Of a stretch of 64,000 nucleotides of DNA, positions 45,000-64,000 are shown in pieces. Below the pieces are notes generated by a model that was not told where the DNA came from, ran no database searches, and saw nothing but the letters and a program-made list of their open reading frames with translations. The translations under genes were made by a program, and so were the position numbers. Position 1 is the first letter of the stretch. Every line of letters starts with the position of its first letter. Source of the stretch: Candidatus Hydrogenedens sp. (GTDB lineage Bacteria; Hydrogenedentota; Hydrogenedentia; Hydrogenedentales; Hydrogenedentaceae); NCBI GenBank assembly GCA_049968235.1, contig JBMFRC010000007.1:1-64000 (forward strand), written 5' to 3'.

Positions 45000-46007
45000 T
45001 TATCTCACATTATATTCCACAGGCTTACAAACTGCTCTAAAATTTTCATATGGAGTATCGCCCGGAATTTCACATCCAGCACCAATCATAAGCGGAGGAC
45101 CTACTTCTCTATATAATTCCAGATGTTTCTTATAGATAACTTCAGGAGTGGATTCCATAACCTCTCTTACAGGGTCAAGGTTCGTTACCAGAACTTTGTC
45201 ATTTCCAAGAATCTCTCTTGCTTCCTTCAAAGGGACAAACCAATCCAAATCATAAACATCGCAGGGCAAATCTTTCCAATAGTATAATAAATGGCGTGTA
45301 TTACCACAAATATGCAATCGAACCAATCCGCCTGCTTTTTTTATAGCATCCATCAAACGATATTCGTGGGGGAATATTAAATCACGATAAGTCTCCGGTG
45401 AAACCTGACTTGCAATAGCATCACCAATTCCAATAGTATCTGCCCCTTCTTTCAACTGAGCCAGAGCGAAATTAATTGCGGTATCCACACAAAAACTCAT
45501 CAATTCATTAACATATTCAGGTTGAACCAACAAATCCATCAAAAAGTCTGTTACTCCCCGCAAATCCGCAGCCTCTGCAGCAGGACCTTCTATCCATCCC
45601 ATTACAGAATATTCATTCTTAGCACGATTTCTCATTTCACGAACAGATAAAATTCGGTCGTACATTCGTTCTGCCTTATAAGGGTCCGGAATAGGAAGTC
45701 TCGTAAAATCCGGATTATCGCGTAGCGGAGGATTGGGACAACGTGGAACTGCATCTTCTGGATATTCTAATACCGTTCCAAAACCTGACGTTTCACGGAA
45801 AGGGTCTGATATTGCACTCCATTGGTCATAGCCAAAATCCCGGATACATGCCTCATTAGCATTAACAAGCACATTATAATCGGTCACAAACTGCCGATAA
45901 TTACATCCAATATAATGGGTTGCAAAAGACATAACTATAGGCAATCGAGGGAGGAAATCAACAGGCTCATTGCGAATTGTTTTGATATATCGTTCATAAG
46001 AGTTCAT
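45000..46007 (-). CDS. Uroporphyrinogen decarboxylase (URO-D) family protein (HemE/MtaA-CmuA-like)
   Basis: N-terminal …IRNEPVDFLPRLPIVM… resembles the URO-D family. 335 aa. Confidence 0.5.
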   Translation of the reverse strand: MNSYERYIKTIRNEPVDFLPRLPIVMSFATHYIGCNYRQFVTDYNVLVNANEACIRDFGYDQWSAISDPFRETSGFGTVLEYPEDAVPRCPNPPLRDNPDFTRLPIPDPYKAERMYDRILSVREMRNRAKNEYSVMGWIEGPAAEAADLRGVTDFLMDLLVQPEYVNELMSFCVDTAINFALAQLKEGADTIGIGDAIASQVSPETYRDLIFPHEYRLMDAIKKAGGLVRLHICGNTRHLLYYWKDLPCDVYDLDWFVPLKEAREILGNDKVLVTNLDPVREVMESTPEVIYKKHLELYREVGPPLMIGAGCEIPGDTPYENFRAVCKPVEYNVR

Positions 46008-46052: not shown

Positions 46053-48902
46053 TTAAACAATATTACCTAATTTCGCCTTTAAATGTTGCCCTGTATATGA
46101 TTTCATTTCCTTTATTATATCTTCCGGTGGACCCTGAGCAATGACATATCCCCCCTGGTCACCTCCTTCAGGACCAAGGTCTATAATCCAATCGGCAGTT
46201 CGAATAACTTCAAGGTTATGCTCTATAACAATAACAGTATTCCCCAAATCTACAAGTTGATGTAATACTCGAAGCAATCTATCCACATCAACAGCATGTA
46301 GTCCTGTGGTAGGCTCATCGAGGATATAAAGTGTGTTTCCAGTATGCCTTCTTAACAATTCCGTTGCTAACTTAACACGCTGTGCCTCTCCTCCTGAAAG
46401 TGTTGTTGCGGGTTGACCTAAATTAATATATCCCAGACCCACCTCAAAAAGGGTTTCTAAGGGGCGAGATATTTGAGGAATATTTTTAAAGAAATCCATT
46501 GCATTTTCAACAGTCATATCCAGCACTTCTGCTATATTTTTACCTTTATACTGGATTTGCAAAGTATCACGGTTATATTTTTTTCCATGACAAGTATCAC
46601 AGGGGATATATACATCCGGGAGAAATTGCATTTCAATAGTTAAGTAACCATTCCCTTCACAGGCTTCACAACGTCCCCCTTTCACATTAAAACTAAATCT
46701 ACCCGCACTGTATCCGCGTGCTCTTGCTTCAGGAACTTTGCTGAATAATTCACGAATAGGTGTAAATAAACCGGTATATGTAGCCGGATTAGAACGAGGG
46801 GTTCTTCCGATAGGTGATTGGTCTATATCTATTACTTTATCAATGTTGTTTATCCCTTCTATTTGTGAATAGAACAGCTTAACTTCGGGTTTCTTTTTTA
46901 ATATGGCATTTTGAACTGCAGGGAATAAAGTCTCATTGATTAAACTGGATTTTCCGGAACCCGAAACGCCTGTTACACAAACAAACACCCCTAAAGGAAA
47001 CGAGACATCTATATTTTTCAAATTATTTAAAGAGACACCTTTTATAGTAAGCCATTTATTTTGAGGTTTTCTTCGTTTTTCGGGGCAAAAAACATGAAAT
47101 TTTCCAGCAAGATACTTTCCTGTCCATGAATCAGCACACTTTGCAATCTTTGACGGCGGTCCTTGAGCAACAATTTTTCCACCATGAATACCTGCACCGG
47201 GTCCTAAATCAATAACATAGTCCGCAGAACGAATTGTAGATTCATCGTGTTCAACCACAATAACGGTATTTCCCAAATTCCTGAGTTTTATCAGTGTTTC
47301 AATTAAACGATTTGTATCGCGAGGATGCAATCCAATACTGGGTTCATCCAGGACATAAATAACACCGACCAATCCCGAACCTATTTGACTTGCTAAACGA
47401 ATTCTTTGTGATTCCCCTCCCGATAATGTCCCAGCATTACGGTCTAAGGTTAAATAATCCAGACCCACATCCATAAGAAATGATAATCGCAAATTAATTT
47501 CCTTCAACACTCTTTCTGCTATCTTTTTTTGGAATTCAGTCAACTTTAAGTTTTCAAAGAATGCCCGTGCTTCTTTAATAGACATTTTTGTTACATCTAC
47601 AATATTCTTTCCATCTATTCGAACAGCACGCGATTCCGGTTTTAATCTTGTACCCTGACAGGAACGGCATATATGGGTTGCCATATATTTTTCTATCATT
47701 TCCCGAGCACGATTTGAAGTTGTTTCTCTATACCGTCGTTCTAAATTAGGAATAACCCCTTCAAAAGGTTTATAAGTTTCATAACTACTATTTGCCATAT
47801 GATATGTAAAACGGATATATTCATCTCCCGAGCCATAAAGAATAATCTCTTTGAATGTATCCGGCAAATCCTTCCAGGGGGTTAAAGGACTTTCACCATA
47901 ATGTTCACAGATAATACGCAGTGTTTTTCGATACATTGAATCAAGAATAGGTCGCTGACTCCAGGGTTCAACAGCACCTTCTGCTATTGACAAATCGGGA
48001 TTGGGAATAACAAGTTCAGGGTCAATTTCCGTCACAGTTCCTAAACCGGTACATGCGGGACATGCCCCATGAGGATTATTAAAAGAGAACATACGAGGTT
48101 CTAACTCTTCAATAGAGATATTGCAGTCAATACAGGAAAGTTTCTCACTTTGTAATATTTCCTGAGGTTGACTTCCCGGGAATTCATACCAAATACGAAC
48201 TAACCCATTCCCCAGTTTCAGAGCCGTTTCTATAGAGTCCGTTAATCGTTTTTGTATATCGGATTTAATAACAAGCCTATCTACTACAACCTCAATATCA
48301 TGTTTTTTATATCGTTCTAATTTTATTTCATCGTCCACATGATAAATCGTTTTGTTTACACGAACTCGAACAAATCCAGATTTTTTAATTTCTTCAAATA
48401 ATTTTGTATAGTTCCCTTTTCTTTGACGAACCACAGGGGCTAAAATTTGAATTTTGGTTTGTTCTGGAAAGCCCATAATATTATCTACAATCTGTTGGGG
48501 TGTCTGAGCGGAAATTACTTTACCACATTTATAGCAATAGGGTGTTCCAACACGAGCGAAAAGCAATCGTAGATAATCATATATTTCAGTTACAGTTCCG
48601 ACCGTAGAACGCGGGTTTCGATGAACGGTCTTTTGTTCTATCGAAATAGCAGGGCTTAACCCTTCAATCAGGTCAACATCCGGTTTTTCCATTTGTTCAA
48701 GGAATTGTCGTGCATATGCGGATAGACTTTCGACATATCGTCTCTGCCCTTCCGCATAAAGAGTATCAAAAGCAAGGCTGGATTTCCCGGAGCCACTCAA
48801 CCCGGTAATTACAATCAGTTTGTTCCTTGGCAAATCCAGATTGATATTAGCGAGGTTGTGTTGTCGTGCCCCACGGATAATAATATATTCGGATTTATTC
48901 AT
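46053..48902 (-). CDS. uvrA: Excinuclease ABC subunit A
   Basis: 949 aa. Duplicated ABC ATPase modules ([23 protein letters not shown]…; [15 protein letters not shown]…). Zn-finger Cys pairs. Confidence 0.95.
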
Positions 48903-48934: not shown

Positions 48935-50905
48935 TTATTGGTTGGCTTGAACATTTTCAGATGGGATTGTAGGTGGTTTAACAATTAAAGATTCCTCAAT
49001 ATTCCCATCAATAATAATATCACCTTTAACAGTCTTTAACAGAACAGTATATTTTCCTTCTCGAATCTGGGCTTCTGCTTCTTGTTTCATTCTAGAAAAA
49101 ACACCCATTAAAGGAAGGGCAGTATCAATAATTCCCTCTTGCGTTATGGCTTTTAATTTACAATCTGTTTCAGGTGATAAAAGAATACTAATATTTCCCT
49201 TATCGGTTGAAATGTCAATATCGCCTAATATTCCATTCAGAGCCAAAAAACGAACATCTCCTTCCTGCAATCGTGCTACAACCTTCGATTGAATATCTTC
49301 TAAATTCACATTTGCCTGAATAGCCGTTATATTAATAGGTGCTTTAATATTTTTCAATGTCGCCAACCCACCACGAATCGCTATTTCTCCATTACTACCC
49401 ATATCTTCTATTCGTATATTCCCTTTTTGATTTGATACAAAATAAGGACCTTTACATGTTAATACAGAAACGACACCTGACCCTTGATTTATTCGTAGAG
49501 AACTCTCCATATTTTCACATGCAGTTTGTCCTTCTTTTGACTCTATAGAAACACCCATATGGGAAGGACAAAATATCTGAATATCCACCCTCCAATCTGA
49601 AAGATATTCGGGAAGAGCATCAAAATTTCCCGAAGTCATAATATATATTCTATTTTCTGTTCGATGAAGGTTTGCTGACACTTTCTCCAATGCTGATGTT
49701 GCTTTATCTGCAGAAGAAACCCAAACCAAACGGGTTGCTTTTACTCGTATTTTATTATCACCTGACGGGAGAATACGAACATCTCCTTTTTGATTGTTTA
49801 TTATTAAAACATCCTCGGGAGTTATTTCTTCCTCTACGGAAAAAACTTCACTAAAAGGTTTATAGTTTGATATAGTACTCTGAGGACTGGATAGAAATGT
49901 GTCGCTTCTAAAAAGAGCTACCTCCGAAAATACCGCTGTTATTTCAATTTTTTGTTTCGCATCCGGATTGGTTAAGTCTAAAGTACTCAATGAGCCTGTA
50001 CTTTTTTGAAGAATAGGCACATCCGTACTTAACTGACTTCCTAATAAACTCCCTTTCACTTCTAATTGTGATGTATCTTCAAACTTAATACTTGATTTGC
50101 CACTATCTGTATGCAAAATATACCTTCCTACTCCTAATTTTTGTAGTTTTAGTTCTCCTAAAAGATTATAAATACTAACTTCCCCTTGCAAATCATATAT
50201 CTCTGCATTTGTTCTCGAAAGATAGAAAAAACCACCATTTGTAATTTTTTTCGCTTTTAGCGGAAATTCCCCCTGTGTTCTCACTGAAACCTTGCCATTA
50301 ATATTTTCAAGTTCTATCGAACCATACTGTTCGTTAATCGTTACAGTTCCATCCACATTGGATATTCGCGTATCTCCAAAAAAATTATCAACAGAAATAT
50401 TTGCAGAACGAGGTAGTGTAATCACATAATCAATTTTTATAAATGATACACTCTCTTCGGGAAATTGATTTTCAATTAATAGTGTATTATTTTCGTTATT
50501 GATTCGTGGCTGGAAATTACTTGCTGTTTTTTCAAGAACATCTTGATTTTGCCCACCTAAGGTTAGGGTCGTCTGCACAACTACTAACGGCTCACTCCAC
50601 GATTTAATTTCAACGAGTCCAAACTCATTTTTTATCAAGACATTTATATTTTGAGATACAGAGACCTGATTTTCATAGTTCTTTGTAATTGTATATGGGA
50701 CAGATTGTTGATTGCCGAAAAGGTTTGACCTTAGTACCTCATCTGCATAAGAACCAATCTGATGAATACCTTTTATAACGGTATCAAACCCTGTTTTAAC
50801 GCCATCCAGAAGTTTGTCCTGTCCGTATGAGGAGGAGGCATACAGGTAGACACAAATAAAAAATATTAATAACTTTTTCAAATTATTGTTTCTATAATGC
50901 ATCAT
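48935..50905 (-). CDS. Secreted beta-strand-repeat (DUF4097/adhesin-like) protein
   Basis: Signal peptide. Repetitive G-x-I/V-x-I/V beta-solenoid-like segments (…GDVRISN…GKVSVRT…GNIRIED…). Confidence 0.4.
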   Translation of the reverse strand: MMHYRNNNLKKLLIFFICVYLYASSSYGQDKLLDGVKTGFDTVIKGIHQIGSYADEVLRSNLFGNQQSVPYTITKNYENQVSVSQNINVLIKNEFGLVEIKSWSEPLVVVQTTLTLGGQNQDVLEKTASNFQPRINNENNTLLIENQFPEESVSFIKIDYVITLPRSANISVDNFFGDTRISNVDGTVTINEQYGSIELENINGKVSVRTQGEFPLKAKKITNGGFFYLSRTNAEIYDLQGEVSIYNLLGELKLQKLGVGRYILHTDSGKSSIKFEDTSQLEVKGSLLGSQLSTDVPILQKSTGSLSTLDLTNPDAKQKIEITAVFSEVALFRSDTFLSSPQSTISNYKPFSEVFSVEEEITPEDVLIINNQKGDVRILPSGDNKIRVKATRLVWVSSADKATSALEKVSANLHRTENRIYIMTSGNFDALPEYLSDWRVDIQIFCPSHMGVSIESKEGQTACENMESSLRINQGSGVVSVLTCKGPYFVSNQKGNIRIEDMGSNGEIAIRGGLATLKNIKAPINITAIQANVNLEDIQSKVVARLQEGDVRFLALNGILGDIDISTDKGNISILLSPETDCKLKAITQEGIIDTALPLMGVFSRMKQEAEAQIREGKYTVLLKTVKGDIIIDGNIEESLIVKPPTIPSENVQANQ

Positions 50906-50908
50906 TAT

Positions 50909-52327
50909 TTACTTGTTAAATAAATATCCAAATATTTTCTTTATTATTGTTAATCCATTATCGGAGGTATTTTGTTCCACAAGATTTATTTCTGAAGATG
51001 TTCCCTTATATACATTTTCCACAATCTTCTGAACTTCAGACTTAACCAGCCCGCGTAAAGGTACATTCGCTAACATACCATAGACCGGTGCAGTTGCTTG
51101 CTTTGCCAAATCAGGATTTGCTTTTACTGTCTCTACAGCTTCTTTTAAATCATTTAAATATTCATCCACAACTCTATCATGCAATGGGTTTATCATGAAA
51201 TGAATGCTCGCAGGTTTTTGCTGGCGGTCAATATGCCATCCTTTTGCTTCTAAAATATCTGCTACTGCATAAATATTTACTTTTGGAGTTTTACTACAAT
51301 AAGCAAATAACGGTCCCTGTGGTTCACCCACAATTTCCAAGTCAGGAATCTCTTGAATACCTTTCTTAAATTTCCTAACAATCTCCGCTAATTTCTTCGC
51401 ATTTTCAAGATACCTGTTTTGGCCCAAACCCATAAGAGTTGCCCATGCAGAAGCAATGGCTCCTCCGGGACGGGTACCTGTTAGACCGGGCGTCATCACA
51501 ATACCGCCAGGAAAATCTACTGAAATAAATAATTGATACTTCATTATATCCATAGAACGATACAAAATAACAGAGGCACCTTTGGCAGAATAGCCATATT
51601 TATGTAAATCTGCAGAGATAGATGTTACCCCAGAAATACGGAAATCAAAAGGAGTAATATCTTCCCCTAATTTCTCCAACCATGGGAGAATAAAACCTCC
51701 AACACACGCATCAACATGTAAATATAAATGATATTTTATTGCTAAATCACTCAATTTAGATATAGGGTCAATAGTTCCATAGGGATAATTGGGGGCAGAA
51801 CCAACCAGAGCAATGGTCTTCGGCGTTATTCTTCGTTCAACTGCATCTACATCCACTTTCCCCGTTTTATCCACAGGAGCATGTATCATCTTTATATCAA
51901 AATACTCTCCTGCTTTAAGAAAAGCAACATGTGCTGAGTCAGGAATAATAACCTCAGGGATAAAATACTTATCTCGGCGTTCTATCCGTACTTTATCTCT
52001 ATATGTTTTCATTGCTAACAAAATACTTTCTGTGCCACCAGAGGTCATACAACCCACAGTATTATCATCCCCATTAAGCAAAGAAGCAGTCATCTGAACG
52101 ACTTCTGCCTCAAATTTCTTTAAACTTTGAAATGCCATTGGATTTAATCCATTTTCATGGATATACATATTGTATGCGTCTTTAACAAGTTCTGAATGTT
52201 CTTCTGAAAAATGGAATACAAGACTAAATATCCGACCATCTTCCCAACGAGCATCATTTTGCCGGGCTAATTCTAATTCCTTTAAAATTTCTTCTTTTGA
52301 TTTCCCTTCCTCTGGAATAGTTATCAC
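50909..52327 (-). CDS. PLP-dependent group-II-decarboxylase-fold enzyme, sphingosine-1-phosphate lyase-like
   Basis: GGTESILLAMKTYRD. HVDACVGGFILPW. SADLHKYGYSAKGASVILYRS…GGIVMTPGLTGTRPGGAIASAWA…KGWH…PASIHFMINPLH closely parallels motif blocks of eukaryotic and bacterial S1P lyases. Comparison is from memory, not a search. Confidence 0.65.
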   Translation of the reverse strand: MITIPEEGKSKEEILKELELARQNDARWEDGRIFSLVFHFSEEHSELVKDAYNMYIHENGLNPMAFQSLKKFEAEVVQMTASLLNGDDNTVGCMTSGGTESILLAMKTYRDKVRIERRDKYFIPEVIIPDSAHVAFLKAGEYFDIKMIHAPVDKTGKVDVDAVERRITPKTIALVGSAPNYPYGTIDPISKLSDLAIKYHLYLHVDACVGGFILPWLEKLGEDITPFDFRISGVTSISADLHKYGYSAKGASVILYRSMDIMKYQLFISVDFPGGIVMTPGLTGTRPGGAIASAWATLMGLGQNRYLENAKKLAEIVRKFKKGIQEIPDLEIVGEPQGPLFAYCSKTPKVNIYAVADILEAKGWHIDRQQKPASIHFMINPLHDRVVDEYLNDLKEAVETVKANPDLAKQATAPVYGMLANVPLRGLVKSEVQKIVENVYKGTSSEINLVEQNTSDNGLTIIKKIFGYLFNK

Positions 52328-52409
52328 TTTGGGTCTCCTATCTTACATTCTTTATCACAACTTTGAGATAAAATTATACCTTAAATCTATCACCAATTCT
52401 GAAATAAGT

Positions 52410-53237
52410 TTATATCATGATACTGCGAAAAACTGCGATGGACTCTACAATGAGATGATAAACGACCCACGCAATTCCGACAGACTCAAAAATGACCAAA
52501 AGGGCAATTTGGGCATCCCGAATATTTCGGAATGTTTTATCCCAGTCATTTCTTAACGGTAAGCCACCCATAATAGCAGACAAAATGCCTGTCCACATAT
52601 AAAATAAAAAAGACATAAATATGAATGTATAAACTTTGTCGATATTAGACAAATTACCATTATAATAAGATACCCATCTACTGTGTAATAACTCGATACC
52701 TTGTAATAAGTAAAAGGCTATACAATAAACAAGACTTAATAGAAATAAGGTTAAAATTAATTGATAAATAAGTAAACCCCAATGAATTTTTTTACCACTA
52801 TAAATACCTGATGAAAAATAAAGATAAAAATAAAAAGATAGATAAATAATAAATCCGATACCAAAACACAAACCCAAAATAGAAAATAATATTCTTGTCA
52901 ACAAAACAGGTATCCGAATTCTTGCAGATAATCCTGCACAAACACCTAACCATATCCTATTCTCATAATCTAAAGTAAGTTCTTGAGAGAAATTTCTTAG
53001 ATGGAGTAATTTTTCAGCCTGTAATGCAGGTTCACCAAACTCTTCATATAAAATCTTGTATAATTCCTCATCATGAATATAATTCTTACCGTTTTTTTTG
53101 AGTGTAGATATGATTTTAGTTTTTAGTTCAAGAAGTATTTTCTTTCTGTTTTCAATATCTATTGATGAATTTAAAGAAGTATTTACTTCTGTTAAGTATT
53201 TGTTAATTATAGTTTCCTGTTTATAGGTTATAACCAT
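52410..53237 (-). CDS. PspC-domain membrane protein
   Basis: RIWLGVCAGLSARIRIPVLLTRILFSILG matches the PspC domain, followed by several TM helices. Confidence 0.5.
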   Translation of the reverse strand: MVITYKQETIINKYLTEVNTSLNSSIDIENRKKILLELKTKIISTLKKNGKNYIHDEELYKILYEEFGEPALQAEKLLHLRNFSQELTLDYENRIWLGVCAGLSARIRIPVLLTRILFSILGLCFGIGFIIYLSFYFYLYFSSGIYSGKKIHWGLLIYQLILTLFLLSLVYCIAFYLLQGIELLHSRWVSYYNGNLSNIDKVYTFIFMSFLFYMWTGILSAIMGGLPLRNDWDKTFRNIRDAQIALLVIFESVGIAWVVYHLIVESIAVFRSIMI

Positions 53238-53489
53238 TTTTCTCCCCCAAATTTTAAATGATTATACACTATTTTTATATTAATTTCCCAACACTTTTTA
53301 AAACCTAATTGTTATTTTTCAGTCTAAATGACTGAAAATCAATGTTTATTTTACTATATCTGAAACATTTCTAAAAATACTATAAAAGTTATTAATTTAT
53401 GAAATTTAACTTACTAATTTAATATAATTTCACAACAAAATTATAAAATCATATATCAAAATAACATTAATTTACACAAAAATTAAGGT

Positions 53490-55199
53490 TTGGCGGTTAT
53501 GAACACATTTACAAAAATTCAATTGCTTTATCACATTGCTAAATGGAGAGCAACCTGGGACTGGAGAAATACAAAAAAAGCAATTCGTGTTCCTGGAAAT
53601 CCTAAATTCATGGGTGCTCGTGAAGCAGTCGGTATGATTAAAGATGGCTCTGTCATTGCAACCTCAGGGCTTGCAGGTAATATGCGAGCCTCATTTATGT
53701 GGTGGGCAATTAAGGAAATGTTTCAGGAAACAGGGCATCCTTGTAACTTAACGATAGTTAGTGTCGGAGGACAGGGTGGAAGAGGTAAGATTCCCGGAAC
53801 ATTAGAAGAATTAGGTTTACCCGGACTTTGTACACGAATTTTCACTGGACATACAGAAACCTATAAATCCATTTTAAAATTGGCGGACCAGGGTCATTGT
53901 GAAATCCAAATTATTCCACAAGGAACTCTTACATTGATACTAAAAGCCATGGGAGAAGAAGGAAAAAACTATGTTATCAACAAGACAGGAGTAGGAACTT
54001 TCATAGACCCACGAACAGGTAGAGGGACACCGTTATTTAATGAAAACGAACCTCAATATGTTTCAATTATAGATGACGAATATTTTAAATATGAATGTCC
54101 CTGGCCTGATGTTGCCATCTTCAATGCCCCTTCCGCAGATAAAGAAGGGAATATTTATCAAAAAAATGCTGTCATGATTGGTGAAAGTTATGAGATAACA
54201 AAAGCAGTTAAAAAACGGGGGGGAATTGTAATTGCTAATGTGGCTCAAATTGTAGACAAGGGACATGATGAAATATTTCTACCCGCTTCAGATATTGATG
54301 CCATTGTAGTCTGGAAAGGGACAGAACAAACGGGTGGAGTAAAACATATTCATCATTGGGATTTCCTAACATTAAATAGTAAAACAGCCATAGATGAAGG
54401 TATTGCAAGAGTTCGTTTCGTAAACAAGGTATTAGGAATTACTCCTCGCAGAACTACTGCGGATGAAGTATTAGCCCGACTTTCAGCAAAAATATTCGTT
54501 CAAAATTCCCAAAAGGGCGATTATGTAGATATTGGCGTTGGACTTCCTGAGGAGGCTTCCCGTCTTCTTTATGAAAGTGGTGTTCTAAATGACATTACTT
54601 TGATGACAGAAAGTGGTGTTATGGGAGGGCTACCAGCACCCGGAATATTTTTTGGTGCGGCAATTAATCCTACCGAAATTGTTTCGTCTGCTACTGTTTT
54701 TCAACGAATGTATCAACGGTTAGACAGTGTTATTTTAGGTGCTTTAGAAGTAGATGGTAGTGGAAATGTAAATGTTTCTAAGCGTGGGGAAGGTGCTATT
54801 AATTATGTAGGACCGGGTGGTTTTATTGACCTAACCACATCCGCCAAAAAGGTATTTTTCTGTGTAGCATGGGGAAATCAGTCGGAAATAAAAGTTGAAG
54901 ATGGAAAAGTAAAAGTATTAAAAGCAGGACAACCTAAATTTATCGAAAAAGTAAGCGAAATTACATTCAATGGACAAGAAGCTTTAAAAGTGGGTAAAAA
55001 GGTTTTTTACATAACTCATATTGGTGCCTTTGCCTTAACAGAAAGAGGTATGGAATTGCGATGGATTATGCCGGGAGTGGATATAGAAAAAGACATTTTG
55101 AATGTTATTAAAATGCCTTTTGTACTTCCCGAAAATGGACCTATTGTAGTTGATGATACTATTATTTCAGGGAGAAACTTTAAACTGAATTTTGAATAG
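53490..55199 (+). CDS. CoA-transferase family protein (fused alpha/beta, acyl-CoA:acetate/3-ketoacid CoA-transferase-like)
   Basis: N-terminal …AREAVGMIKDGSVIATSGLAGN…. 569 aa. The track start is TTG; an ATG at 53499 is an alternative. Confidence 0.6.
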   Translation: MAVMNTFTKIQLLYHIAKWRATWDWRNTKKAIRVPGNPKFMGAREAVGMIKDGSVIATSGLAGNMRASFMWWAIKEMFQETGHPCNLTIVSVGGQGGRGKIPGTLEELGLPGLCTRIFTGHTETYKSILKLADQGHCEIQIIPQGTLTLILKAMGEEGKNYVINKTGVGTFIDPRTGRGTPLFNENEPQYVSIIDDEYFKYECPWPDVAIFNAPSADKEGNIYQKNAVMIGESYEITKAVKKRGGIVIANVAQIVDKGHDEIFLPASDIDAIVVWKGTEQTGGVKHIHHWDFLTLNSKTAIDEGIARVRFVNKVLGITPRRTTADEVLARLSAKIFVQNSQKGDYVDIGVGLPEEASRLLYESGVLNDITLMTESGVMGGLPAPGIFFGAAINPTEIVSSATVFQRMYQRLDSVILGALEVDGSGNVNVSKRGEGAINYVGPGGFIDLTTSAKKVFFCVAWGNQSEIKVEDGKVKVLKAGQPKFIEKVSEITFNGQEALKVGKKVFYITHIGAFALTERGMELRWIMPGVDIEKDILNVIKMPFVLPENGPIVVDDTIISGRNFKLNFE

Positions 55200-55218
55200 G
55201 CAAATTACTATTGATTTA

Positions 55219-55962
55219 TTAATTCGATTTTTGTTTATCAAAGTGATTGTCCAAAATTTGTGGAAGTTTCTCGATATATTCAAGCCAATTTTTAAACAGG
55301 AAATCTGCCGTTGTGGAAGTCATATATTTAAAGTTTATCCCGGCAAAAAGGCCCGCATAACCACCTGCTCTTTTTATACCAATAATATCTGTGGGTTCCA
55401 GGTCTCCGAGATGTAGCATCTCTTCCGTTTTCACCCCTAATTCATAAGCGGTTTTTTCAAACATTACGGGTTGAGGTTTGGAAACACCTTCTTCATCCGA
55501 AAAACGATATGAGGAAATATATTGTGCGAAGCCATGTATCTCAAGTAATTTCAGTAATGACTTTCCCGGTGATATGCCTGTATCTGAAATAAGACCTACA
55601 GGAACAAATTGCGAGGTATATCTAACTGCATCTAGGGCATTTTCTATAGGTTCCGGTTGAAATACTAATATGGCAGTAGCAAATTGTTCTGCAAGAAATT
55701 CATATTCACTTTTATTAAGGTCTATACCTAATTGTAACGAAACCATATCCACCGCGTCTTCGGGTGTTAATGTTCTTTGCTCTTCAATATGACATCGTGC
55801 AAATTCTTTACCCACCATTGACATCGACTCTAGAGCCACCTCTAACGATATACCCTGCTTAAAAGTATTTACTATGGCTTTTGCCCGGTATTCCTGTCTT
55901 TCTTTACTTAATGCATCCCGAAACAGAGTCCCCCAAAAATCAAAACTTACTGCTTTTATCAT
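55219..55962 (-). CDS. HAD-superfamily hydrolase with variant motif I (FDFWGTL: Asp+2 replaced by Trp)
   Basis: MIKAVSFDFWGTLF at the N-terminus. C-terminal GDLEPTDIIGIKRAG motif III/IV-like. Confidence 0.65.
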   Translation of the reverse strand: MIKAVSFDFWGTLFRDALSKERQEYRAKAIVNTFKQGISLEVALESMSMVGKEFARCHIEEQRTLTPEDAVDMVSLQLGIDLNKSEYEFLAEQFATAILVFQPEPIENALDAVRYTSQFVPVGLISDTGISPGKSLLKLLEIHGFAQYISSYRFSDEEGVSKPQPVMFEKTAYELGVKTEEMLHLGDLEPTDIIGIKRAGGYAGLFAGINFKYMTSTTADFLFKNWLEYIEKLPQILDNHFDKQKSN

Positions 55963-55980
55963 GTATATCTACTCCAATAA

Positions 55981-57387
55981 TTACTTATTCCTCAAAATAT
56001 CTTTAATCTGACTTTGAACCGCATTCACCATTTCATCTTCTACAGTGGGCGACCACTTTACAGGAGAAGCATATTGCTCTTGAATCACACGTGCCTGGTA
56101 TATATCCTGACGAACAATCTCTCGTGTCGGTATATATAAGTTATGTTCACCCATATACCCAAATAGCATAATTGGATGTTCAGAACGAAAAGTATCTTTG
56201 ATACGCATACCTATTGGGGCACATACTTCCCCCTGCAAAGCAACAAAAATAAGTTCACCTATTTTAACAACTATAGACTCCTCAAATCTACATGGAAATT
56301 CTCTGCCATCCGGGTTATTTTCGATTAAAAATTCATCATCTGTGCAAATCATATCTGAAGTTTTCTGTGGAAAAGGTATCTTCTCTTTGTAATGCTTAAA
56401 TAATGAACGAACCCAATTCGTATCGCGTTCAGGGGCAGGGTAATGTATATAACCGATATCCGTTGGATAAAAAAAGGCAAGTCGTTGAACATCATCAAAA
56501 GGTATCGGTTTGCTTAATGATAAGGGAATAACTTGGAAAGAACTACGAATATTCCCATCTATACTTTTTTGTTTCTCTATAGCAATTCGAATGACCTCAT
56601 CAGCCAATTCTTTGCCATATTTTTGGACAATAGGCATAGGAGCATGCATCATATTCTTAGTAAATTGGTTTCCACCACAGGCATCTGCAAATAACACCAT
56701 CGTATCCGGAAATGCCTCTTCCACATATTCTATGGCATAACCAAAATGTCCGGTATCAATTACATTATTCTGCTCTCGTATCTGTAAAGGGTGGGTAGGG
56801 TGGTTAAAAAGAATGGCTACAGGAATTCCATCATCTTTTACTACTTTTAACTCTTGAACTTCATAATCCACAGGAGCACTCCCCAAACTAAACAAATGAT
56901 AAACATATCCGAACCCAAATTCTAACGAAACGGGTCCTATTTCATGGTTAATTGCTTCTTGAATTAATTGATAAATTTTTTCCGCCAACCATCTACCATA
57001 TTCAAAATTTTCCGGAACAATTTGTATAGGTGCGCAATGATTATGAGTTGCTAGTGGAATAAAATTTTCTACAGGTATATTTAATTCTTTTTTCAATCGT
57101 TCACGAAGAATAGGTGTCGCAACATCAAGACAGTTTAAGTCATAGGTTACTATTATTATTCGTTGGACACCATCATTGAGAACAAGAACACGTGCATAAA
57201 TATCTCTTCCTACCTTATTCATTTTATTGCCAAACACACCAACGGGTTCACGGGATACATCGGGTGTTATTATGCCTTTGGCAACACCCGCAGTTAACGG
57301 ATATGAATCAAAAACTGAAATAAAAACCGACGAAGAAAATAACAAAATAATTAACATTACTTTCATAAAATATTCATATACACACAT
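55981..57387 (-). CDS. Neutral/alkaline ceramidase-like protein (N-terminal catalytic-domain type, 468 aa; lacks the long C-terminal tail domain)
   Basis: Signal peptide. AGVAKGIITPD…GRDIYARVLVLNDGVQRIIIVTYDLNCLD…LATHNHCAP mirrors the neutral ceramidase N-terminal pattern (A.ADITP… / THTHSGP). Comparison from memory. Confidence 0.45.
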   Translation of the reverse strand: MCVYEYFMKVMLIILLFSSSVFISVFDSYPLTAGVAKGIITPDVSREPVGVFGNKMNKVGRDIYARVLVLNDGVQRIIIVTYDLNCLDVATPILRERLKKELNIPVENFIPLATHNHCAPIQIVPENFEYGRWLAEKIYQLIQEAINHEIGPVSLEFGFGYVYHLFSLGSAPVDYEVQELKVVKDDGIPVAILFNHPTHPLQIREQNNVIDTGHFGYAIEYVEEAFPDTMVLFADACGGNQFTKNMMHAPMPIVQKYGKELADEVIRIAIEKQKSIDGNIRSSFQVIPLSLSKPIPFDDVQRLAFFYPTDIGYIHYPAPERDTNWVRSLFKHYKEKIPFPQKTSDMICTDDEFLIENNPDGREFPCRFEESIVVKIGELIFVALQGEVCAPIGMRIKDTFRSEHPIMLFGYMGEHNLYIPTREIVRQDIYQARVIQEQYASPVKWSPTVEDEMVNAVQSQIKDILRNK

Positions 57388-57537
57388 ATAATTCTCCTTA
57401 TATAAATTTGATTAAATTTATTTATCATAAATTTCTTTTTAACTACCATTATATATATAATATCAATCAGAATAAATTTATTAAATTTATTGTTTTTGCA
57501 ATAGATATAATCCGTATATTGGCAGGAATTATTAAAT

Positions 57538-59070
57538 ATGCCAGTCAAAAAAGAAAAAATTCTGATAGTCGATGACGAACTAATTATCCGTGAATTACTT
57601 TTTGACCTTTTGACGGAAGAGGGTTTTTTTGTAGAGATGGCACCTGATGGGGAATCTGCACTAAAAACGATTCGTGAAAATAGTGATATTGCTGTTCTAT
57701 TTACAGACATTATGATGCCTAAAATGGACGGCATTACCCTGATACATAAAGCAAGAGAACTTAATCCGGGTATTGTCCCTATTATAATGACAGGATATGC
57801 TACCATAGAAACAGCAAGAGCGGCAGTGAAAGAGGGGGCTTATGATTATGTGCTAAAACCTTTTAATATCACAGAAATTAAAACAGTAGTAAACAACGCA
57901 CTGGAACGGAATCGACTTATACAGGAAAACGCTCGCTTAAAAGAAATTACAGAATTATTCAAGATTAGTGAAAACATATCCTCAATGCGAGACGAGGAAC
58001 AATTATTTAGATTTATATTAAATGCAGCATTGGAACATACCCAGGCAAAACGAGGTTCTATCCTTGAACTCGTTGATGATGGCAAATATCTTAAAGTGGT
58101 TGCCAGTACCGGATTACCTTCAGAACTTAATGGAAAAGTCATTCCTATTGATTTTAAGACTATCTCAGGAATTGTTGTGAAAAACATAGAACCATTACTA
58201 ATTGAAGACATCAATCAAAATCCCGATTTACAAAATTTCTTAATCGGATTAAAGAACACATCCTTTATTTCAGTTCCATTACAGAGAAAAAAATCGGAAT
58301 TTATGGAATCGCATCCTCTTGTAATTAATGAACAGGATGTAATTGCAGTTCTCAATGTTACAGATAAATCTGATGGTGAAGTTTTTTCAGAAACGGACTT
58401 GAAAGTATTAAAAATCATAGCCAATCATGGTGCATCAGCAATAGAAAATGCTCGATTAATTCGCGAAATAGAATCTGCACAAAGAGAAATCGTATTTACA
58501 TTAGGTGAAATTGTAGAAACTCGTTCCCGAGAAACAGGTAGCCATGTAAAAAGGGTTGCAGAATATTCAAAATTATTAGCATTAAAATTAGGTCTATCCA
58601 ATAAAGAGGCAGAAATTCTCCGATTAGCCTCACCGCTTCATGATGTAGGGAAAGTGGGAATACCTGATGCCATATTAAATAAACCCGGGCCTTTAACACC
58701 CACTGAATTTGATGTAATAAAAACCCATACAACTATCGGATATGATATGTTAAGCAAAGCCAAAGGCATTGTATTACAATCTGCGGCTGTAATTGCTTTG
58801 GAACATCATGAACGCTATGATGGGAATGGCTACCCCAATGGGAAAAAAGGAAAAGATATACATATTTTTGGAAGAATTGTAGGAATAGCGGATGTATTTG
58901 ACGCTTTAGGAGTAGAACGAATATATAAAAGAGCATGGACTTTGGATGAAATCAAAGAGTATTTTGCGGAACAACGAGGAAAACAATTTGATCCCGATTT
59001 AGTAGATACATTTTTTTCCAACATTGAAGAAGTATTACAAATCCGCGATAGATTTCCTGAAAAGGATTAA
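57538..59070 (+). CDS. Response regulator with REC, GAF and HD-GYP (c-di-GMP phosphodiesterase) domains
   Basis: REC: ILIVDDE…TDIMMPKMDGI…K. GAF region. HD-GYP: LHDVGKVGIPD…HHERYDGNGYP. Confidence 0.8.
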   Translation: MPVKKEKILIVDDELIIRELLFDLLTEEGFFVEMAPDGESALKTIRENSDIAVLFTDIMMPKMDGITLIHKARELNPGIVPIIMTGYATIETARAAVKEGAYDYVLKPFNITEIKTVVNNALERNRLIQENARLKEITELFKISENISSMRDEEQLFRFILNAALEHTQAKRGSILELVDDGKYLKVVASTGLPSELNGKVIPIDFKTISGIVVKNIEPLLIEDINQNPDLQNFLIGLKNTSFISVPLQRKKSEFMESHPLVINEQDVIAVLNVTDKSDGEVFSETDLKVLKIIANHGASAIENARLIREIESAQREIVFTLGEIVETRSRETGSHVKRVAEYSKLLALKLGLSNKEAEILRLASPLHDVGKVGIPDAILNKPGPLTPTEFDVIKTHTTIGYDMLSKAKGIVLQSAAVIALEHHERYDGNGYPNGKKGKDIHIFGRIVGIADVFDALGVERIYKRAWTLDEIKEYFAEQRGKQFDPDLVDTFFSNIEEVLQIRDRFPEKD

Positions 59071-59103: not shown

Positions 59104-61803
59104 CTAATATTCATAGGCTCCCATATCATAATCAGACCCATCCCCGGTAACACCTGAAATGGCGTCTCGTCCACGGAGATTTCCTTCAATATCTGTCAAT
59201 ACATTTCCCCATTCATTAGGACTTGTATCCATTCCTCTGTCGATACAAGGAGAACTACTATTCAATCTAAAATTACCGGCACTCGGGAAAATAAATAATG
59301 GGTCTGAACTTATATTTCCTTCTCCATTCTTCACCTGCTGTGTGTTACAATACATAAAAATTGCATCATTCCCGAGAGAATATGTCCCCTGTCCAGAATT
59401 TTGCCATATAATAGTATTCGCAAATGCTACATTGCTATAGTAGTTAAACACAGCCCCACCATGACTCGTCGTTGTTAAATCTGCTTGATTATCATATAAG
59501 GTACAGTTTGAAAAAACAACATTTTCACACAGGTCTATATGCACCCCACCCGTTCTTTCAATAGAAGAACTAAAATCATAAGCCTTATTTCTAAATCCTA
59601 TGGCATTTACAATTTTTGCAGAACTTTTTGTCATATAAATCATTCCTGCACTTGCTCGGGAAAAACCCCTATGGTCATTTGTAGAAACCGTATTATTTCT
59701 AAAATCTGAGTTTCTCAAATTTATATCGCTATACCATAGGTAAATAGCCCCTCCTAATGCTTTTGCGAAAGCACCATAAACCCCACCGTTAACAGTCCCA
59801 TGCCCTATCCCTTCTGCGGAACATGCATTTGAATAGAACAAACAGTTATCTATAGTTAATGAAGTATTGTAAGCAAATATTCCTCCACCAGCAGACACAA
59901 CGGTTATGTTCTGTGTAGAGGTTTGCCAAGTTCCTTGTGATGAAATTCGATTTGACTCAAAACGAGAATTCTGAATATTAATTACACTGTCTGTCACATA
60001 AATAGCAGAACCATAATTATAACTGGAATCGGATGAAACATTTTCTATTACATTCTCAATGAAATTACAGTTATATAAAGATAATTTCCCACTGATACAA
60101 CATATGCCAGCACCTACTCCGACTGATTTATTCTGGAAAAATGTACAGTTCTTGACAACCATTTTCTTTGCGGGAATATATAGACCACCTCCATCCTGAG
60201 CATCGCTGTAAACATAATCATAGCGGGCATCTCCCCCTTTTATTATGAATCCATTCAGTTCGCTATAATTTTCACCTTTAACTACATGCCAGGCTGGTTG
60301 TCCATCTCTTGCGATACTGCCATTTATAATAGTGATATTTGTTTGATAATTTCTTTGATTTAGTTCAGTTTCCGTACCTTGAAATCCCCCATAGACATTC
60401 ACCAATTCTCGAAGTATTAATGCTCCATAAGGATTTAAAGGATTTGAACGAACTTCATTATAATCTCCCGCAGAAACCCATACCTCTCCTCCACCTAACT
60501 CGAACGCTCTATCTATCCCTTCTTGCAAAGTAGGAAATGCTGTTGCCCATGATAATCCATCAGGTTCAATTTCTTCTTTTTGCCCCTTTGTCTGAGGTTT
60601 TTTTACATATATTCGTGAACCCTGGATTATTTCAATATAATCTGTTTTTTGTTTTATACTTTGTCCTGCACTGGTCGTAACGATTAATGTTACGGTATAA
60701 ATTCCCGGAGATAGATATGTGTGAGTAGGATTCCTCAAGAAACTAAAACTTCCATCCCCGAAATTCCACTGCCAGGCTGGTTCTGTTCCATTGCCCATTT
60801 TACTTTCATCACGGAACTCGATTTCATTATTGATTATGTTTTTTACAGGGGTAGCCGAAAAGTCTGCTATGGGAGGATAAGGAAAGGAACTATAAATACG
60901 TATGTAACCCGCTAAAATAGAAAGCGGATATATCAATCCATCAGGATAACTGGTAGCCATCACATTTTCTGCATAAATAGAATAAATATCATTAAATTCA
61001 GCATTTTCAGAGACTTTAAACCTCAAAATAGCATATATGCCTGATGACATTCCTGAAGTGGATGTGCCTGTTGTCGTTAATCTAAGTTTCCCTGGAATGA
61101 TTTGTCCTACTGATAGATTTCGACCTGTATTTTGAATCGCCGGTCCTATCATAAAATCCAGATATTGTATCCGATTGGAATTGAAAATCAGGTCAAACTG
61201 AACATATCCTAATATAACATTTTTAGTTTCAAGAGTAAGCGGAATATTTATTTCTGTATTAGGAACTGTATCCTTTCTATCAACAACAATACGAGCATAA
61301 TTATATGTCTCTCCTTCTCCTTCCCCTTCCAATACTCCTTCCGCAGAACCTTCTCCTTCGAAACCTTCCGGAGTCCCTTCAGGTGCCCCTTCAATAATTA
61401 CAGGACATAAAACAGGGCGAAAACCATCTTCTTTAGATGGGTCTATTTCATAACCACATACATTATAAAACTGAACCAAACGAAGAAGCTCATTTAATGT
61501 TATTCGCCAGAAATTATTCGGTTCATAATCGCTATCATGGGGTTCACATGACTGGTCCCCCGCTCCCGGTGCATATCCGTCTTCTCCAGCAGGGTCACAA
61601 TGATAGGCACGGGCATTAAAAAACTGGATTACACGTAGTAATTCGCTTAAATCAATTTTATAATCTTGATTCTTATCTGCAGTATGATAATCTCCCTTCC
61701 CAACCGAATCAACTGCATAGGAAGCATTACTTAAAATCCCGTTTAATACACACAAAAAAATGGCAGTTACAAACAGCCCTAACAATGTTATTTTACGTCT
61801 CAT
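59104..61803 (-). CDS. Secreted 899-aa protein: N-terminal tandem dockerin-like module, EGEG linker, PKD domain and right-handed parallel beta-helix (pectate-lyase-fold) region
   Basis: Signal peptide. DLSELLRVIQFFN…ITLNELLRLVQFYN. EGEGSAEGVLEGEGEGE. WQWNFGDGS…NPTHTY (PKD). Repeated NxxFxxN beta-helix turns. Confidence 0.65.
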   Translation of the reverse strand: MRRKITLLGLFVTAIFLCVLNGILSNASYAVDSVGKGDYHTADKNQDYKIDLSELLRVIQFFNARAYHCDPAGEDGYAPGAGDQSCEPHDSDYEPNNFWRITLNELLRLVQFYNVCGYEIDPSKEDGFRPVLCPVIIEGAPEGTPEGFEGEGSAEGVLEGEGEGETYNYARIVVDRKDTVPNTEINIPLTLETKNVILGYVQFDLIFNSNRIQYLDFMIGPAIQNTGRNLSVGQIIPGKLRLTTTGTSTSGMSSGIYAILRFKVSENAEFNDIYSIYAENVMATSYPDGLIYPLSILAGYIRIYSSFPYPPIADFSATPVKNIINNEIEFRDESKMGNGTEPAWQWNFGDGSFSFLRNPTHTYLSPGIYTVTLIVTTSAGQSIKQKTDYIEIIQGSRIYVKKPQTKGQKEEIEPDGLSWATAFPTLQEGIDRAFELGGGEVWVSAGDYNEVRSNPLNPYGALILRELVNVYGGFQGTETELNQRNYQTNITIINGSIARDGQPAWHVVKGENYSELNGFIIKGGDARYDYVYSDAQDGGGLYIPAKKMVVKNCTFFQNKSVGVGAGICCISGKLSLYNCNFIENVIENVSSDSSYNYGSAIYVTDSVINIQNSRFESNRISSQGTWQTSTQNITVVSAGGGIFAYNTSLTIDNCLFYSNACSAEGIGHGTVNGGVYGAFAKALGGAIYLWYSDINLRNSDFRNNTVSTNDHRGFSRASAGMIYMTKSSAKIVNAIGFRNKAYDFSSSIERTGGVHIDLCENVVFSNCTLYDNQADLTTTSHGGAVFNYYSNVAFANTIIWQNSGQGTYSLGNDAIFMYCNTQQVKNGEGNISSDPLFIFPSAGNFRLNSSSPCIDRGMDTSPNEWGNVLTDIEGNLRGRDAISGVTGDGSDYDMGAYEY

Positions 61804-63590: not shown

Positions 63591-63652
63591 ATAATTCTTT
63601 CTATATCTGTTCTTAATTATATCCTTTAAAGAGGAGATTTTGTTCAATAAAT

Positions 63653-64000
63653 TTAAATTTCTTCTATAGCCATTGCGGTTGTCTTTACAAGATGTGTCTT
63701 CCAATTTAGTTTCCTGATTAACTCTTTACCTTGTTTTTTAGACTCTACAATAACAAAAAAGGTTGACCCACTACCTGTCATTCCCACATACGGAAAACCC
63801 ATTTTTTTTATTTTTAATTTTAATTCATATAATTCTGGATAAATACAAAATGCGGGTAATTCTAATCGATTGTATATAACCTTCTTCCAATTCCTTTTCC
63901 GTAATGCATATATTACTTTTCTAAACCTAATACTATATTTAATTGCAACTACATGTGAAGGTCGAATACTTAATGCGGGATGTTGATACACCTTTGCGGT
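63653..64000 (-). CDS. ispE: 3' portion of a GHMP-kinase gene, probably 4-diphosphocytidyl-2-C-methyl-D-erythritol kinase; start lies beyond the window end
   Basis: C-terminal GHMP motif MTGSGSTFFVI, positioned as in IspE. Reading frame is open to the window edge. Confidence 0.4.
   Translation of the reverse strand, partial: TAKVYQHPALSIRPSHVVAIKYSIRFRKVIYALRKRNWKKVIYNRLELPAFCIYPELYELKLKIKKMGFPYVGMTGSGSTFFVIVESKKQGKELIRKLNWKTHLVKTTAMAIEEI

What the first reader, a model, noticed from the sequence alone, without database searches (positions are those of the whole stretch)
50909..57387. Ceramidase-like and sphingosine-1-phosphate-lyase-like genes in one neighbourhood
A secreted neutral-ceramidase-like protein (55981-57387) and a PLP enzyme resembling S1P lyases (50909-52327) lie within 6.5 kb. 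Between them sit a CoA-transferase and a HAD hydrolase. The HAD motif I reads FDFWGTL, so the usual second Asp is replaced by Trp. In eukaryotes ceramidase, a phosphatase and S1P lyase are consecutive steps of sphingolipid turnover, and the CoA-transferase could activate the released fatty acid or aldehyde product. Bacterial sphingolipid catabolic loci are poorly described. The ceramidase-like protein is also unusually short (catalytic domain only).
Basis: partly seen in the sequence, partly recalled or inferred. Interest (0 to 1): 0.65.

Follow-up and report, generated by a model that had tools for sequence, protein, structure and literature searches.

The report
Ceramidase-like and lyase-like genes, unlinked
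A Hydrogenedens genome really does carry a short ceramidase-fold enzyme gene and a sphingosine-phosphate-lyase-family gene 3.6 kb apart, but they stay together only in very close relatives, so there is no good evidence that they form a sphingolipid breakdown pathway.

Summary

The pathway reading is not supported.
- Among 79 genomes with the ceramidase-like gene, a lyase lies within 10 kb in only 4. Among 80 loci with the lyase, only 1 has the ceramidase-like gene. All five are close Hydrogenedens relatives that share a >20 kb block which includes uvrA.
- Rearrangements in two relatives split the region into three units: ceramidase-like + HAD, CoA-transferase, and PspC + lyase + LiaG-like.
- The real pathway needs a sphingosine kinase, not a phosphatase. 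No kinase is in the 64 kb window.
- The HAD belongs to a subfamily with invariant D-x-W, so it lacks the phosphatase general acid.
- The CoA-transferase is YdiF-like.
- The lyase's clade has Asn in place of the phosphate-binding His129, and here Phe in place of Tyr105.
- The ceramidase-like protein lacks the GDVSPN serine and the C-terminal domain.

Most likely these are independent genes of uncharacterised subfamilies of known families.

The parts
55981..57387 (-). Short (468 aa) exported protein with the neutral-ceramidase catalytic fold ('CERL'). Putative Zn site: H115, H117, H199, E387, Y418, Y430.
55219..55962 (-). HAD-fold hydrolase of a D-x-W-x-T subfamily, 18 bp downstream of CERL and probably co-transcribed with it.
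   Evidence: Pfam Hydrolase E 1.4e-12. Trp at Asp+2 in 136 of 138 representative homologs; motifs II-IV conserved. Closest PDB entry 2om6, which also has FDVWNTL. Adjacent to CERL in 6 of the 79 genome loci, all close relatives; the same pairing recurs in the look-up loci.
53490..55199 (+). Fused alpha/beta family-I CoA-transferase, YdiF/FadX-like, on the opposite strand. Convergent with the HAD gene and divergent from the PspC gene.
   Evidence: PDB 2ahu YdiF 204 bits. NCBIfam FadX 210 bits, far below its cutoff of 750; Pfam CoA_trans.
52410..53237 (-). PspC-domain multi-pass membrane protein, 82 bp upstream of the lyase gene.
   Evidence: Pfam PspC E 3e-10. Stays next to the lyase in L160, L162-L166.
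50909..52327 (-). Soluble S1P-lyase-family PLP enzyme. PLP Lys is K243. Belongs to the bacterial 'Asn/Thr' clade, lacks the N-terminal ~70 aa of StSPL, and has F38 and N62 at the StSPL Y105 and H129 positions.
   Evidence: alignments; residue roles; clade statistics; MfnA model 264 bits, below its cutoff of 299.
48935..50905 (-). 656-aa exported LiaG/DUF4097-like protein, 3 bp downstream of the lyase gene.
   Evidence: NCBIfam LiaG E 5.5e-8. DUF4097 (faint) in the ortholog. Syntenic with the lyase in all close relatives.
46053..48902 (-). uvrA, a housekeeping gene inside the same conserved synteny block.
   Evidence: Translation. UvrA domains in orthologous loci. tblastn 82-94% identity in relatives.
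57538..59070 (+). Response-regulator/GAF/HD-GYP protein, divergent from CERL. A conserved neighbour only in close relatives.
   Evidence: Pfam; tblastn.

Best explanation
The region holds three independent units that are neighbours only through shared ancestry within the Hydrogenedens lineage.

(1) CERL + HAD. CERL is an exported, single-domain, Zn-dependent amidohydrolase with the neutral-ceramidase fold. By analogy with P. aeruginosa and human neutral ceramidase, Zn is held by H115, H199, E387 and Y418, with H117 as general base and Y430 stabilising the transition state, and the enzyme cleaves an N-acyl amide. Its natural substrate is unknown and need not be ceramide.

(2) A YdiF-type CoA-transferase.

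(3) PspC-domain protein + S1P-lyase-family PLP enzyme + LiaG-like protein (+ uvrA...). The PLP enzyme is a cytosolic dimeric fold-type-I enzyme that most likely performs an SPL-type retro-aldol cleavage, or a related reaction on an amino alcohol/amine substrate, with a head-group pocket different from that of characterised SPLs.

Shown: family and fold assignments, residue conservation, and lack of conserved linkage. Inferred: chemistry, substrates and operon structure.
For: Fold and family.

Zn-site motif mapping and invariance.

Linkage test from the CERL side: 79 genome loci with up to 10 kb of flank (shorter where the contig ends); a lyase is present in only 4 (L001, L002, L004, L005), all at 65% identity or more.

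Linkage test from the lyase side: 80 metagenome loci; CERL, HAD, CoA-transferase, PspC and LiaG-like are each found only in L080, at 74% identity.

Close relatives share a >20 kb block that includes uvrA, URO-D, a dTDP-sugar epimerase and a GH2.

Breakpoints: L003 breaks right after the HAD gene. In L008/L160 a 9 kb insertion lies between the CoA-transferase and PspC genes, while PspC-lyase-LiaG-UvrA stay together.

A 55%-identity Hydrogenedentota lyase has neither PspC nor CERL upstream.

Immediate CERL neighbours in other phyla fall into 114 different Pfam families; none of the 25 commonest is PLP_deC, HAD or CoA_trans.

No kinase, Spt or PAP2 in the window.
Against: The closest characterised relatives of both proteins act in the same catabolic route, and the pair lies within 6.5 kb in five or more Hydrogenedens-level genomes down to 62-65% protein identity. 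Weak lineage-specific coupling therefore cannot be excluded.

In the L008/L160 genome a second, distant ceramidase-like paralog (CERL2) sits 3.9 kb upstream of the lyase.

The Zn-ligand mapping rests on sequence motifs, not on a 3D superposition that I could inspect.

No whole-genome view was available, so unlinked kinase or sphingolipid-synthesis genes may exist.
Confidence: 0.65

Rival explanations
1. A genuine sphingolipid (or sphingoid-like N-acyl amino-alcohol lipid) salvage locus specific to Hydrogenedens. Secreted CERL deacylates ceramide-like lipids from detritus, the base is taken up and phosphorylated by an unlinked kinase, and the SPL-like enzyme cleaves it to aldehyde plus phosphoethanolamine.
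For: The family and fold assignments match consecutive-pathway enzymes. The compartments fit: CERL exported, lyase cytosolic. The co-location persists in relatives down to about 62-65% identity.
Against: There is no conserved linkage outside one lineage, and rearrangements separate the units. No kinase is in the 64 kb window. The genes are in separate transcription units on both strands. His129 is replaced by Asn and Tyr105 by Phe in the phosphate pocket. The GDVSPN Ser is absent from CERL. The HAD is not a canonical phosphatase, and a phosphatase would run the pathway backwards.
Confidence: 0.1
2. The SPL-like enzyme works with its flanking PspC-domain membrane protein and LiaG/DUF4097-like exported protein in an envelope or membrane-lipid homeostasis module, unrelated to CERL.
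For: The gaps are 82 bp and 3 bp on the same strand. The trio stays intact in every Hydrogenedens-level locus, including the genome where a 9 kb insertion removed CERL from the vicinity. PspC plus DUF4097/LiaG-type pairs are a recurrent envelope-stress association (my own knowledge, not tested here).
Against: The trio is absent at 55% identity and in 79 of the 80 lyase-clade loci. The commonest partner of the clade is instead a DUF819 transporter-like protein, in 25 of 80 loci. uvrA follows in the same string, so the linkage may again be mere synteny.
Confidence: 0.12
3. The CERL family is an N-deacylase of amino-sugar-containing glycans or glycoconjugates rather than a ceramidase.
For: In other phyla CERL loci repeatedly hold a second short ceramidase-like paralog family, CERL2 (about 23 of 79 loci). 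They also hold DUF7133/HEAT proteins (14 loci), GH2 exo-beta-D-glucosaminidase-like enzymes (8), sulfatases including the N-sulfoglucosamine sulfohydrolase type (8), DegT aminotransferases and Gfo/Idh/MocA oxidoreductases. The nCDase Ser motif is replaced by an invariant CGGNQF.
Against: Each association covers only a minority of loci. No biochemical precedent for this fold acting on sugars is known to me. In the window itself CERL sits next to none of these genes.
Confidence: 0.13

Closest known systems
Neutral ceramidase (P. aeruginosa PaCD/CerN, PDB 2zws; human ASAH2, PDB 4wgk)
Sphingosine-1-phosphate lyase (StSPL 3mad; human SGPL1 4q6r/8ayf; yeast Dpl1p 3mc6; Burkholderia 5k1r; Legionella LegS2 4w8i)
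   Same: 44% identity to StSPL and 41% to human SPL over the catalytic core. The PLP Lys (K243), H242, D206, H133, G98/T99, K249 (=K317) and N59 (=N126) are conserved.
   Different: It lacks the N-terminal ~70 residues of StSPL and the TM anchor of eukaryotic SPLs. H129 is Asn in 119 of the 120 closest homologs, S353 is Thr in 120 of 120, and Y105 is Phe in the Hydrogenedens subclade. No activity data exist for this clade.
P. aeruginosa sphingolipid-responsive genes (cerN next to plcH; SphR-regulated sphA and sphBCD), recalled from my own knowledge
   Same: A bacterium with a secreted neutral-ceramidase-fold enzyme used on exogenous lipids.
   Different: That system has a full-length nCDase, a sphingosine-sensing regulator and no SPL. 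Nothing comparable, whether regulator or conserved operon, was found here.
HAD-fold protein PDB 2om6 ('probable phosphoserine phosphatase', Pyrococcus horikoshii)
   Same: The same D-x-W-x-T motif I (FDVWNTL) and core motifs.
   Different: Only 42 bits of similarity. From my own knowledge, the PDB name is a structural-genomics label, not a tested function.
E. coli YdiF, family-I acyl-CoA:acetate CoA-transferase (PDB 2ahu)
   Same: Full-length match of 204 bits and the same fused alpha/beta architecture.
   Different: The substrate range was not tested here. It falls far below the NCBIfam FadX equivalog cutoff (210 against 750 bits).

Membership tests
Neutral ceramidase (PF04734 / EC 3.5.1.23) | Catalytic-domain fold | tested here: met
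Neutral ceramidase (PF04734 / EC 3.5.1.23) | Sequence match above the Pfam gathering score | tested here: not met
   25.2 bits against a cutoff of 32.1, one short stretch at 173-226. No NCBIfam hit. No PDB sequence hit with either the single sequence or the family profile.
Neutral ceramidase (PF04734 / EC 3.5.1.23) | Zn ligands His/His/Glu/Tyr plus catalytic His and Tyr (PaCD H97, H204, E411, Y448; H99, Y460) | tested here: met
   Motif mapping onto PDB sequence segments: H115/H117 in THNH, H199 in PTH (17 residues before GYA, as in PaCD), E387, and Y418/Y430 with the same 12-residue spacing. All are invariant in 27 family members. The mapping is by sequence, not by an inspected superposition.
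Neutral ceramidase (PF04734 / EC 3.5.1.23) | GD(V/L)SPN motif with the essential Ser (human S354) | tested here: not met
   The equivalent segment is an invariant CGGNQF; the Ser position aligns with F242 or Q241. That the Ser is essential is recalled from the literature and was not checked here.
Neutral ceramidase (PF04734 / EC 3.5.1.23) | C-terminal Ig-like domain | tested here: not met
Neutral ceramidase (PF04734 / EC 3.5.1.23) | Hydrolysis of ceramide | not testable with these tools
   Needs an enzyme assay.
Sphingosine-1-phosphate lyase (EC 4.1.2.27) | Fold-type-I PLP enzyme with the Schiff-base Lys and PLP-binding residues | tested here: met
   K243 (=K311), H242, D206, H133 and G98/T99 are conserved.
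Sphingosine-1-phosphate lyase (EC 4.1.2.27) | Closer to characterised SPLs than to group-II decarboxylases | tested here: met
   222-389 bits to the six SPLs with structures, against 129 bits to MfnA and 80 bits or less to GAD. The NCBIfam MfnA model scores 264 bits, below its cutoff of 299.
Sphingosine-1-phosphate lyase (EC 4.1.2.27) | Substrate phosphate/head-group residues Y105, N126, H129, K317, S353 (StSPL numbering) | tested here: not met
   N126 and K317 are kept. Y105 is F38, H129 is N62 and S353 is T285. Across the clade: Asn in 119 of 120, Thr in 120 of 120, Tyr/Phe 71/49. StSPL and human SPL both have Y/H/S.
Sphingosine-1-phosphate lyase (EC 4.1.2.27) | N-terminal segment or membrane anchor | tested here: not met
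   Query residue 4 aligns with StSPL chain position 71. The ORF cannot be extended upstream. The whole clade has 0-16 extra N-terminal residues.
Sphingosine-1-phosphate lyase (EC 4.1.2.27) | Cleavage of S1P or sphinganine-1-P | not testable with these tools
   Needs an enzyme assay.
HAD phosphatase | Motif I DxDx(T/V), with the second Asp as general acid/base | tested here: not met
   The motif is FDFWGTL. Trp is present in 136 of 138 representative homologs. Motifs II (S126), III (K162) and IV (D187, D192) are present.
Sphingolipid catabolic locus (ceramidase -> sphingosine kinase -> S1P lyase) | A sphingoid-base kinase is present | tested here: not met
   No DAGK_cat/LCB-kinase domain in any ORF of the 64 kb window that was scanned.
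Sphingolipid catabolic locus (ceramidase -> sphingosine kinase -> S1P lyase) | Linkage conserved across lineages, or co-transcription | tested here: not met
   4 of 79 and 1 of 80 loci, all close relatives. Three strand-separated units. Breakpoints in L003 and L008/L160.

The most novel reading that the evidence does not exclude
In the Hydrogenedens lineage the exported ceramidase-fold amidase and the cytosolic SPL-family lyase cooperate, with an unlinked kinase, to scavenge sphingoid or related N-acyl amino-alcohol lipids from detritus. This would be a sphingolipid catabolic route in a free-living, non-pathogenic candidate phylum, run by divergent single-domain forms of both enzymes.
Probability: 0.1. 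Interest if true: 0.7.

Novelty: new variant of a known kind. Interest (0 to 1): 0.3.

Why it matters
As a "sphingolipid catabolic locus" the finding would matter, because such loci are barely described in bacteria. The comparative evidence does not support it.

What remains is more modest. Two large, uncharacterised bacterial subfamilies of medically well-known enzyme families are delineated here.
- A single-domain neutral-ceramidase-fold Zn hydrolase, found in Hydrogenedentota, Planctomycetota, Acidobacteriota, Gemmatimonadota and others.
- A soluble SPL-family clade with an altered phosphate pocket, often paired with a DUF819 transporter-like protein.

Both are currently labelled "neutral ceramidase" or "sphinganine-1-phosphate aldolase" by some pipelines without evidence. 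Knowing their real substrates would correct metabolic inferences about sphingolipid turnover in environmental metagenomes.

Tried and rejected
1. MfnA/GAD-type decarboxylase for the PLP enzyme: rejected. SPLs score 222-389 bits against 129 or less, although the best NCBIfam model is MfnA, below its cutoff.

3. Direct sequence-level confirmation of nCDase membership with a family profile against PDB: found nothing. I therefore obtained real nCDase segments by querying PDB with a remembered human fragment and mapped motifs by hand.

4. Promoter and terminator scans to define operons: counts were at or below the shuffled expectation, so uninformative.

5. HAD as an S1P phosphatase: rejected. D-x-W is a feature of the whole subfamily, and a phosphatase is the wrong pathway step.

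6. CoA-transferase as activator of the aldehyde or fatty acid: not supported. It is YdiF-like and on the opposite strand.

7. Literature searches for Hydrogenedentes sphingolipids, bacterial SPL + ceramidase clusters, DUF819 + SPL, and short ceramidase homologs gave nothing relevant. The primary StSPL paper is not held.

8. The first attempt at a Pfam scan of all neighbours exceeded the residue limit. It was repeated with 7 DUF7133 proteins left out.
Full report
**What is there.** The window comes from a Candidatus Hydrogenedens sp. MAG: both query proteins have 100%-identical NCBI entries. Around the finding the genes are, in window order:
- URO-D/MtaA-like, 45000-46007(-)
- uvrA, 46053-48902(-)
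- a 656-aa exported LiaG/DUF4097-like protein, 48935-50905(-)
- the PLP enzyme, 50909-52327(-)
- a PspC-domain membrane protein, 52410-53237(-)
- a CoA-transferase, 53490-55199(+)
- a HAD hydrolase, 55219-55962(-)
- the ceramidase-like protein 'CERL', 55981-57387(-)
- a divergent response-regulator/GAF/HD-GYP gene, 57538-59070(+)

The two focal genes therefore lie in different strand-defined units: [CERL-HAD, 18 bp gap], [CoA-transferase, opposite strand] and [PspC - 82 bp - lyase - 3 bp - LiaG-like - uvrA ...].

**The PLP enzyme.** phmmer against all PDB chains puts it firmly with S1P lyases. StSPL scores 389 bits (E 2e-115), human SPL 364, a protozoan SPL 332, yeast Dpl1p 320, Burkholderia 313 and Legionella LegS2 222. 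MfnA scores 129 and glutamate decarboxylases 80 or less. The best NCBIfam model is MfnA, but below its cutoff (264 against 299). That is a library artefact, since the NCBIfam scan returned no SPL family among its hits.

I used the residue roles summarised for StSPL in PMC10243590 and the printed alignments. The PLP-binding set is intact: K311=K243, H310, D274, H201 and G168/T169. K317 and N126 are kept. Three head-group contacts differ: Y105 is F38, H129 is N62 and S353 is T285. In the 120 closest homologs (50% identity or more, from many phyla) the H129 position is Asn in 119, the S353 position is Thr in 120, and the Y105 position is Tyr in 71 and Phe in 49. StSPL and human SPL both carry Tyr/His/Ser.

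The protein starts at StSPL chain position 71 (about residue 70), and the ORF cannot be extended upstream. It is therefore a soluble member of a large bacterial clade that is sister to the characterised SPLs, at 44% identity to StSPL and 41% to human SPL. Nobody has shown what this clade cleaves.

To map the active site I retrieved real nCDase sequence segments with their numbering. The mapping is:
- PaCD THTH (H97, H99) = THNH (H115, H117).
- P-V-H204, 17 residues before GYA = P-T-H199, also 17 residues before GYA.
- PAE411FT = QGE387VC.
- Y448-VTTREEYAAQE-Y460 = Y418-IPTREIVRQDI-Y430.

All of these residues are invariant across the family. Two nCDase hallmarks are missing. The GD(V/L)SPN motif serine is absent: the segment is an invariant CGGNQF. 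The C-terminal Ig-like domain is also absent. All family members have a hydrophobic N-terminus, consistent with export. 'Ceramidase' as a function is unproven.

**The genes in between.** The HAD motif I is indeed FDFWGTL. An exhaustive HMMER search of 1.84 billion representatives found 523 relatives at E 1e-10 or better. In 138 aligned representatives the Asp+2 position is Trp in 136, while the nucleophile Asp and motifs II-IV are conserved. The closest solved structure, 2om6, also reads FDVWNTL. This is therefore a distinct HAD subfamily that lacks the general acid which phosphatases use, not a one-off mutation. The CoA-transferase is a full-length match to E. coli YdiF (204 bits).

**Is the neighbourhood conserved?**

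From the CERL side I fetched 79 genome loci from GTDB species representatives, with up to 10 kb of flank on each side, and searched them by tblastn with all the window proteins. An SPL homolog lies in the fetched flanks in only 4: L001, L002, L004 and L005, with CERL at 65-91% identity. L003 (74%) keeps CERL-HAD and then breaks. L008 (82%) keeps CERL-HAD-CoA-transferase and then breaks. The other 73 loci come from Hydrogenedentota at 59% identity or less, Planctomycetota, Acidobacteriota, Gemmatimonadota, Omnitrophota, Bacteroidota and others. They have none of the partners.

From the lyase side, 80 metagenome loci gave the partners only in L080, at 74% identity.

Look-ups of lyase orthologs at 73% and 64% identity show the same block of more than 20 kb as the window. 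It runs PKD protein, RR-GAF-HD, CERL, HAD, CoA-transferase, PspC, lyase, LiaG-like, uvrA, URO-D, OB/HD, one further ORF, dTDP-sugar epimerase, GH2. This is whole-block synteny that includes housekeeping genes. In the L008/L160 genome a 9 kb insertion separates the CoA-transferase gene from PspC, while PspC-lyase-LiaG-uvrA stay together. A Hydrogenedentota lyase at 55% identity has neither PspC nor CERL upstream.

A Pfam scan of 116 immediate CERL neighbours outside the Hydrogenedens group hit 114 different families. None of the 25 commonest is PLP_deC, HAD or CoA_trans.

**Pathway logic.** Ceramide catabolism runs ceramidase, then sphingosine kinase, then S1P lyase. A phosphatase reverses the middle step (pathway outlined in PMC10243590). 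A Pfam inventory of the window's ORFs found no DAGK/LCB-type kinase, no Spt-like oxoamine synthase, no PAP2 phosphatase and no ceramide synthase. The inventory covered the ORFs of 150 aa or more that are not shadowed by a longer gene, plus two ribosomal-protein genes.

**Most likely explanation (about 0.65).** These are three independent units that are adjacent through shared ancestry. CERL is an exported Zn amidohydrolase of the nCDase fold, acting on an unknown N-acyl substrate. The lyase is a cytosolic SPL-family enzyme with a modified head-group pocket.

**Rivals.** They are: a lineage-specific sphingoid-lipid salvage route (about 0.1); a PspC/lyase/LiaG-like envelope module (about 0.12); and a glycan or amino-sugar N-deacylase role for the CERL family (about 0.13). 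The last is suggested by recurrent but minority neighbours in other phyla: a second short ceramidase-like family, DUF7133/HEAT proteins, GH2 exo-glucosaminidase-like enzymes and sulfatases.

**Verdict.** The family resemblances are right. The 'sphingolipid catabolic locus' reading is not supported. Both proteins are divergent variants of known families with untested substrates. Interest is modest (0.3).

Noticed in passing
L080-L159 (e.g. L099:2620-3786:+); not in the window: In 25 of the 80 loci with homologs of the SPL-family clade, a DUF819 (PF05684, CPA/AT-type transporter-like) gene lies directly upstream on the same strand. That is 22 of the 46 loci that have at least 1.5 kb of upstream sequence. 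The 24 DUF819-linked lyases that could be scored all have Asn/Thr at the StSPL H129/S353 positions. This suggests a transporter-enzyme pair with an unknown substrate.
   Followed up: partly
L160:4785-6122:+ (= L008:19228-20562); homologs in about 23 of L001-L079: There is a second family of short (about 445 aa) ceramidase-like proteins, 'CERL2', with motifs SASHTHHGGP and GACGDVTQVN. It is only about 20% identical to the window protein. A member lies within 10 kb of a CERL gene in about 23 of the 79 genome loci across several phyla. It is absent from the window.
   Followed up: partly
window 55219-55962 (-): The HAD belongs to a sizeable subfamily (523 representative clusters at E 1e-10 or better) with an invariant D-x-W-x-T motif I. 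It includes the structural-genomics entry 2om6. The chemistry of this subfamily appears to be uncharacterised.
   Followed up: partly
window 48935-53237 (-): The PspC-domain membrane protein, the SPL-family enzyme and the LiaG/DUF4097-like exported protein form a tight same-strand string (gaps of 82 and 3 bp). The string survives a rearrangement in a relative, which is an odd place for a lipid-type lyase.
   Followed up: partly
window 59104-61803 (-) and 61923-63704 (-): These are large exported proteins with PKD domains and an EF-hand/dockerin-like repeat (DKNQDYKIDLSELLRVIQFFN...). Orthologs carry cohesin and beta-helix hits.
   Followed up: no
window 14258-21556 (-): A loose group of fatty-acid-type genes lies about 30 kb from the finding: a long acyl-CoA dehydrogenase of ACAD9/VLCAD type, an AMP-binding acyl-CoA synthetase and a MaoC dehydratase. 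A second MaoC-domain gene is at 37572-38450.
   Followed up: no
window 57363-57806 (-): A 147-aa ORF overlaps the CERL start and lies antisense to the response-regulator gene. It has low-complexity composition and is probably not a gene.
   Followed up: no
window 25283-30079 (-): A 1598-aa protein with four PASTA domains, GLUG motifs and a weak match to the M26 peptidase N-terminal region. This is an unusual combination.
   Followed up: no
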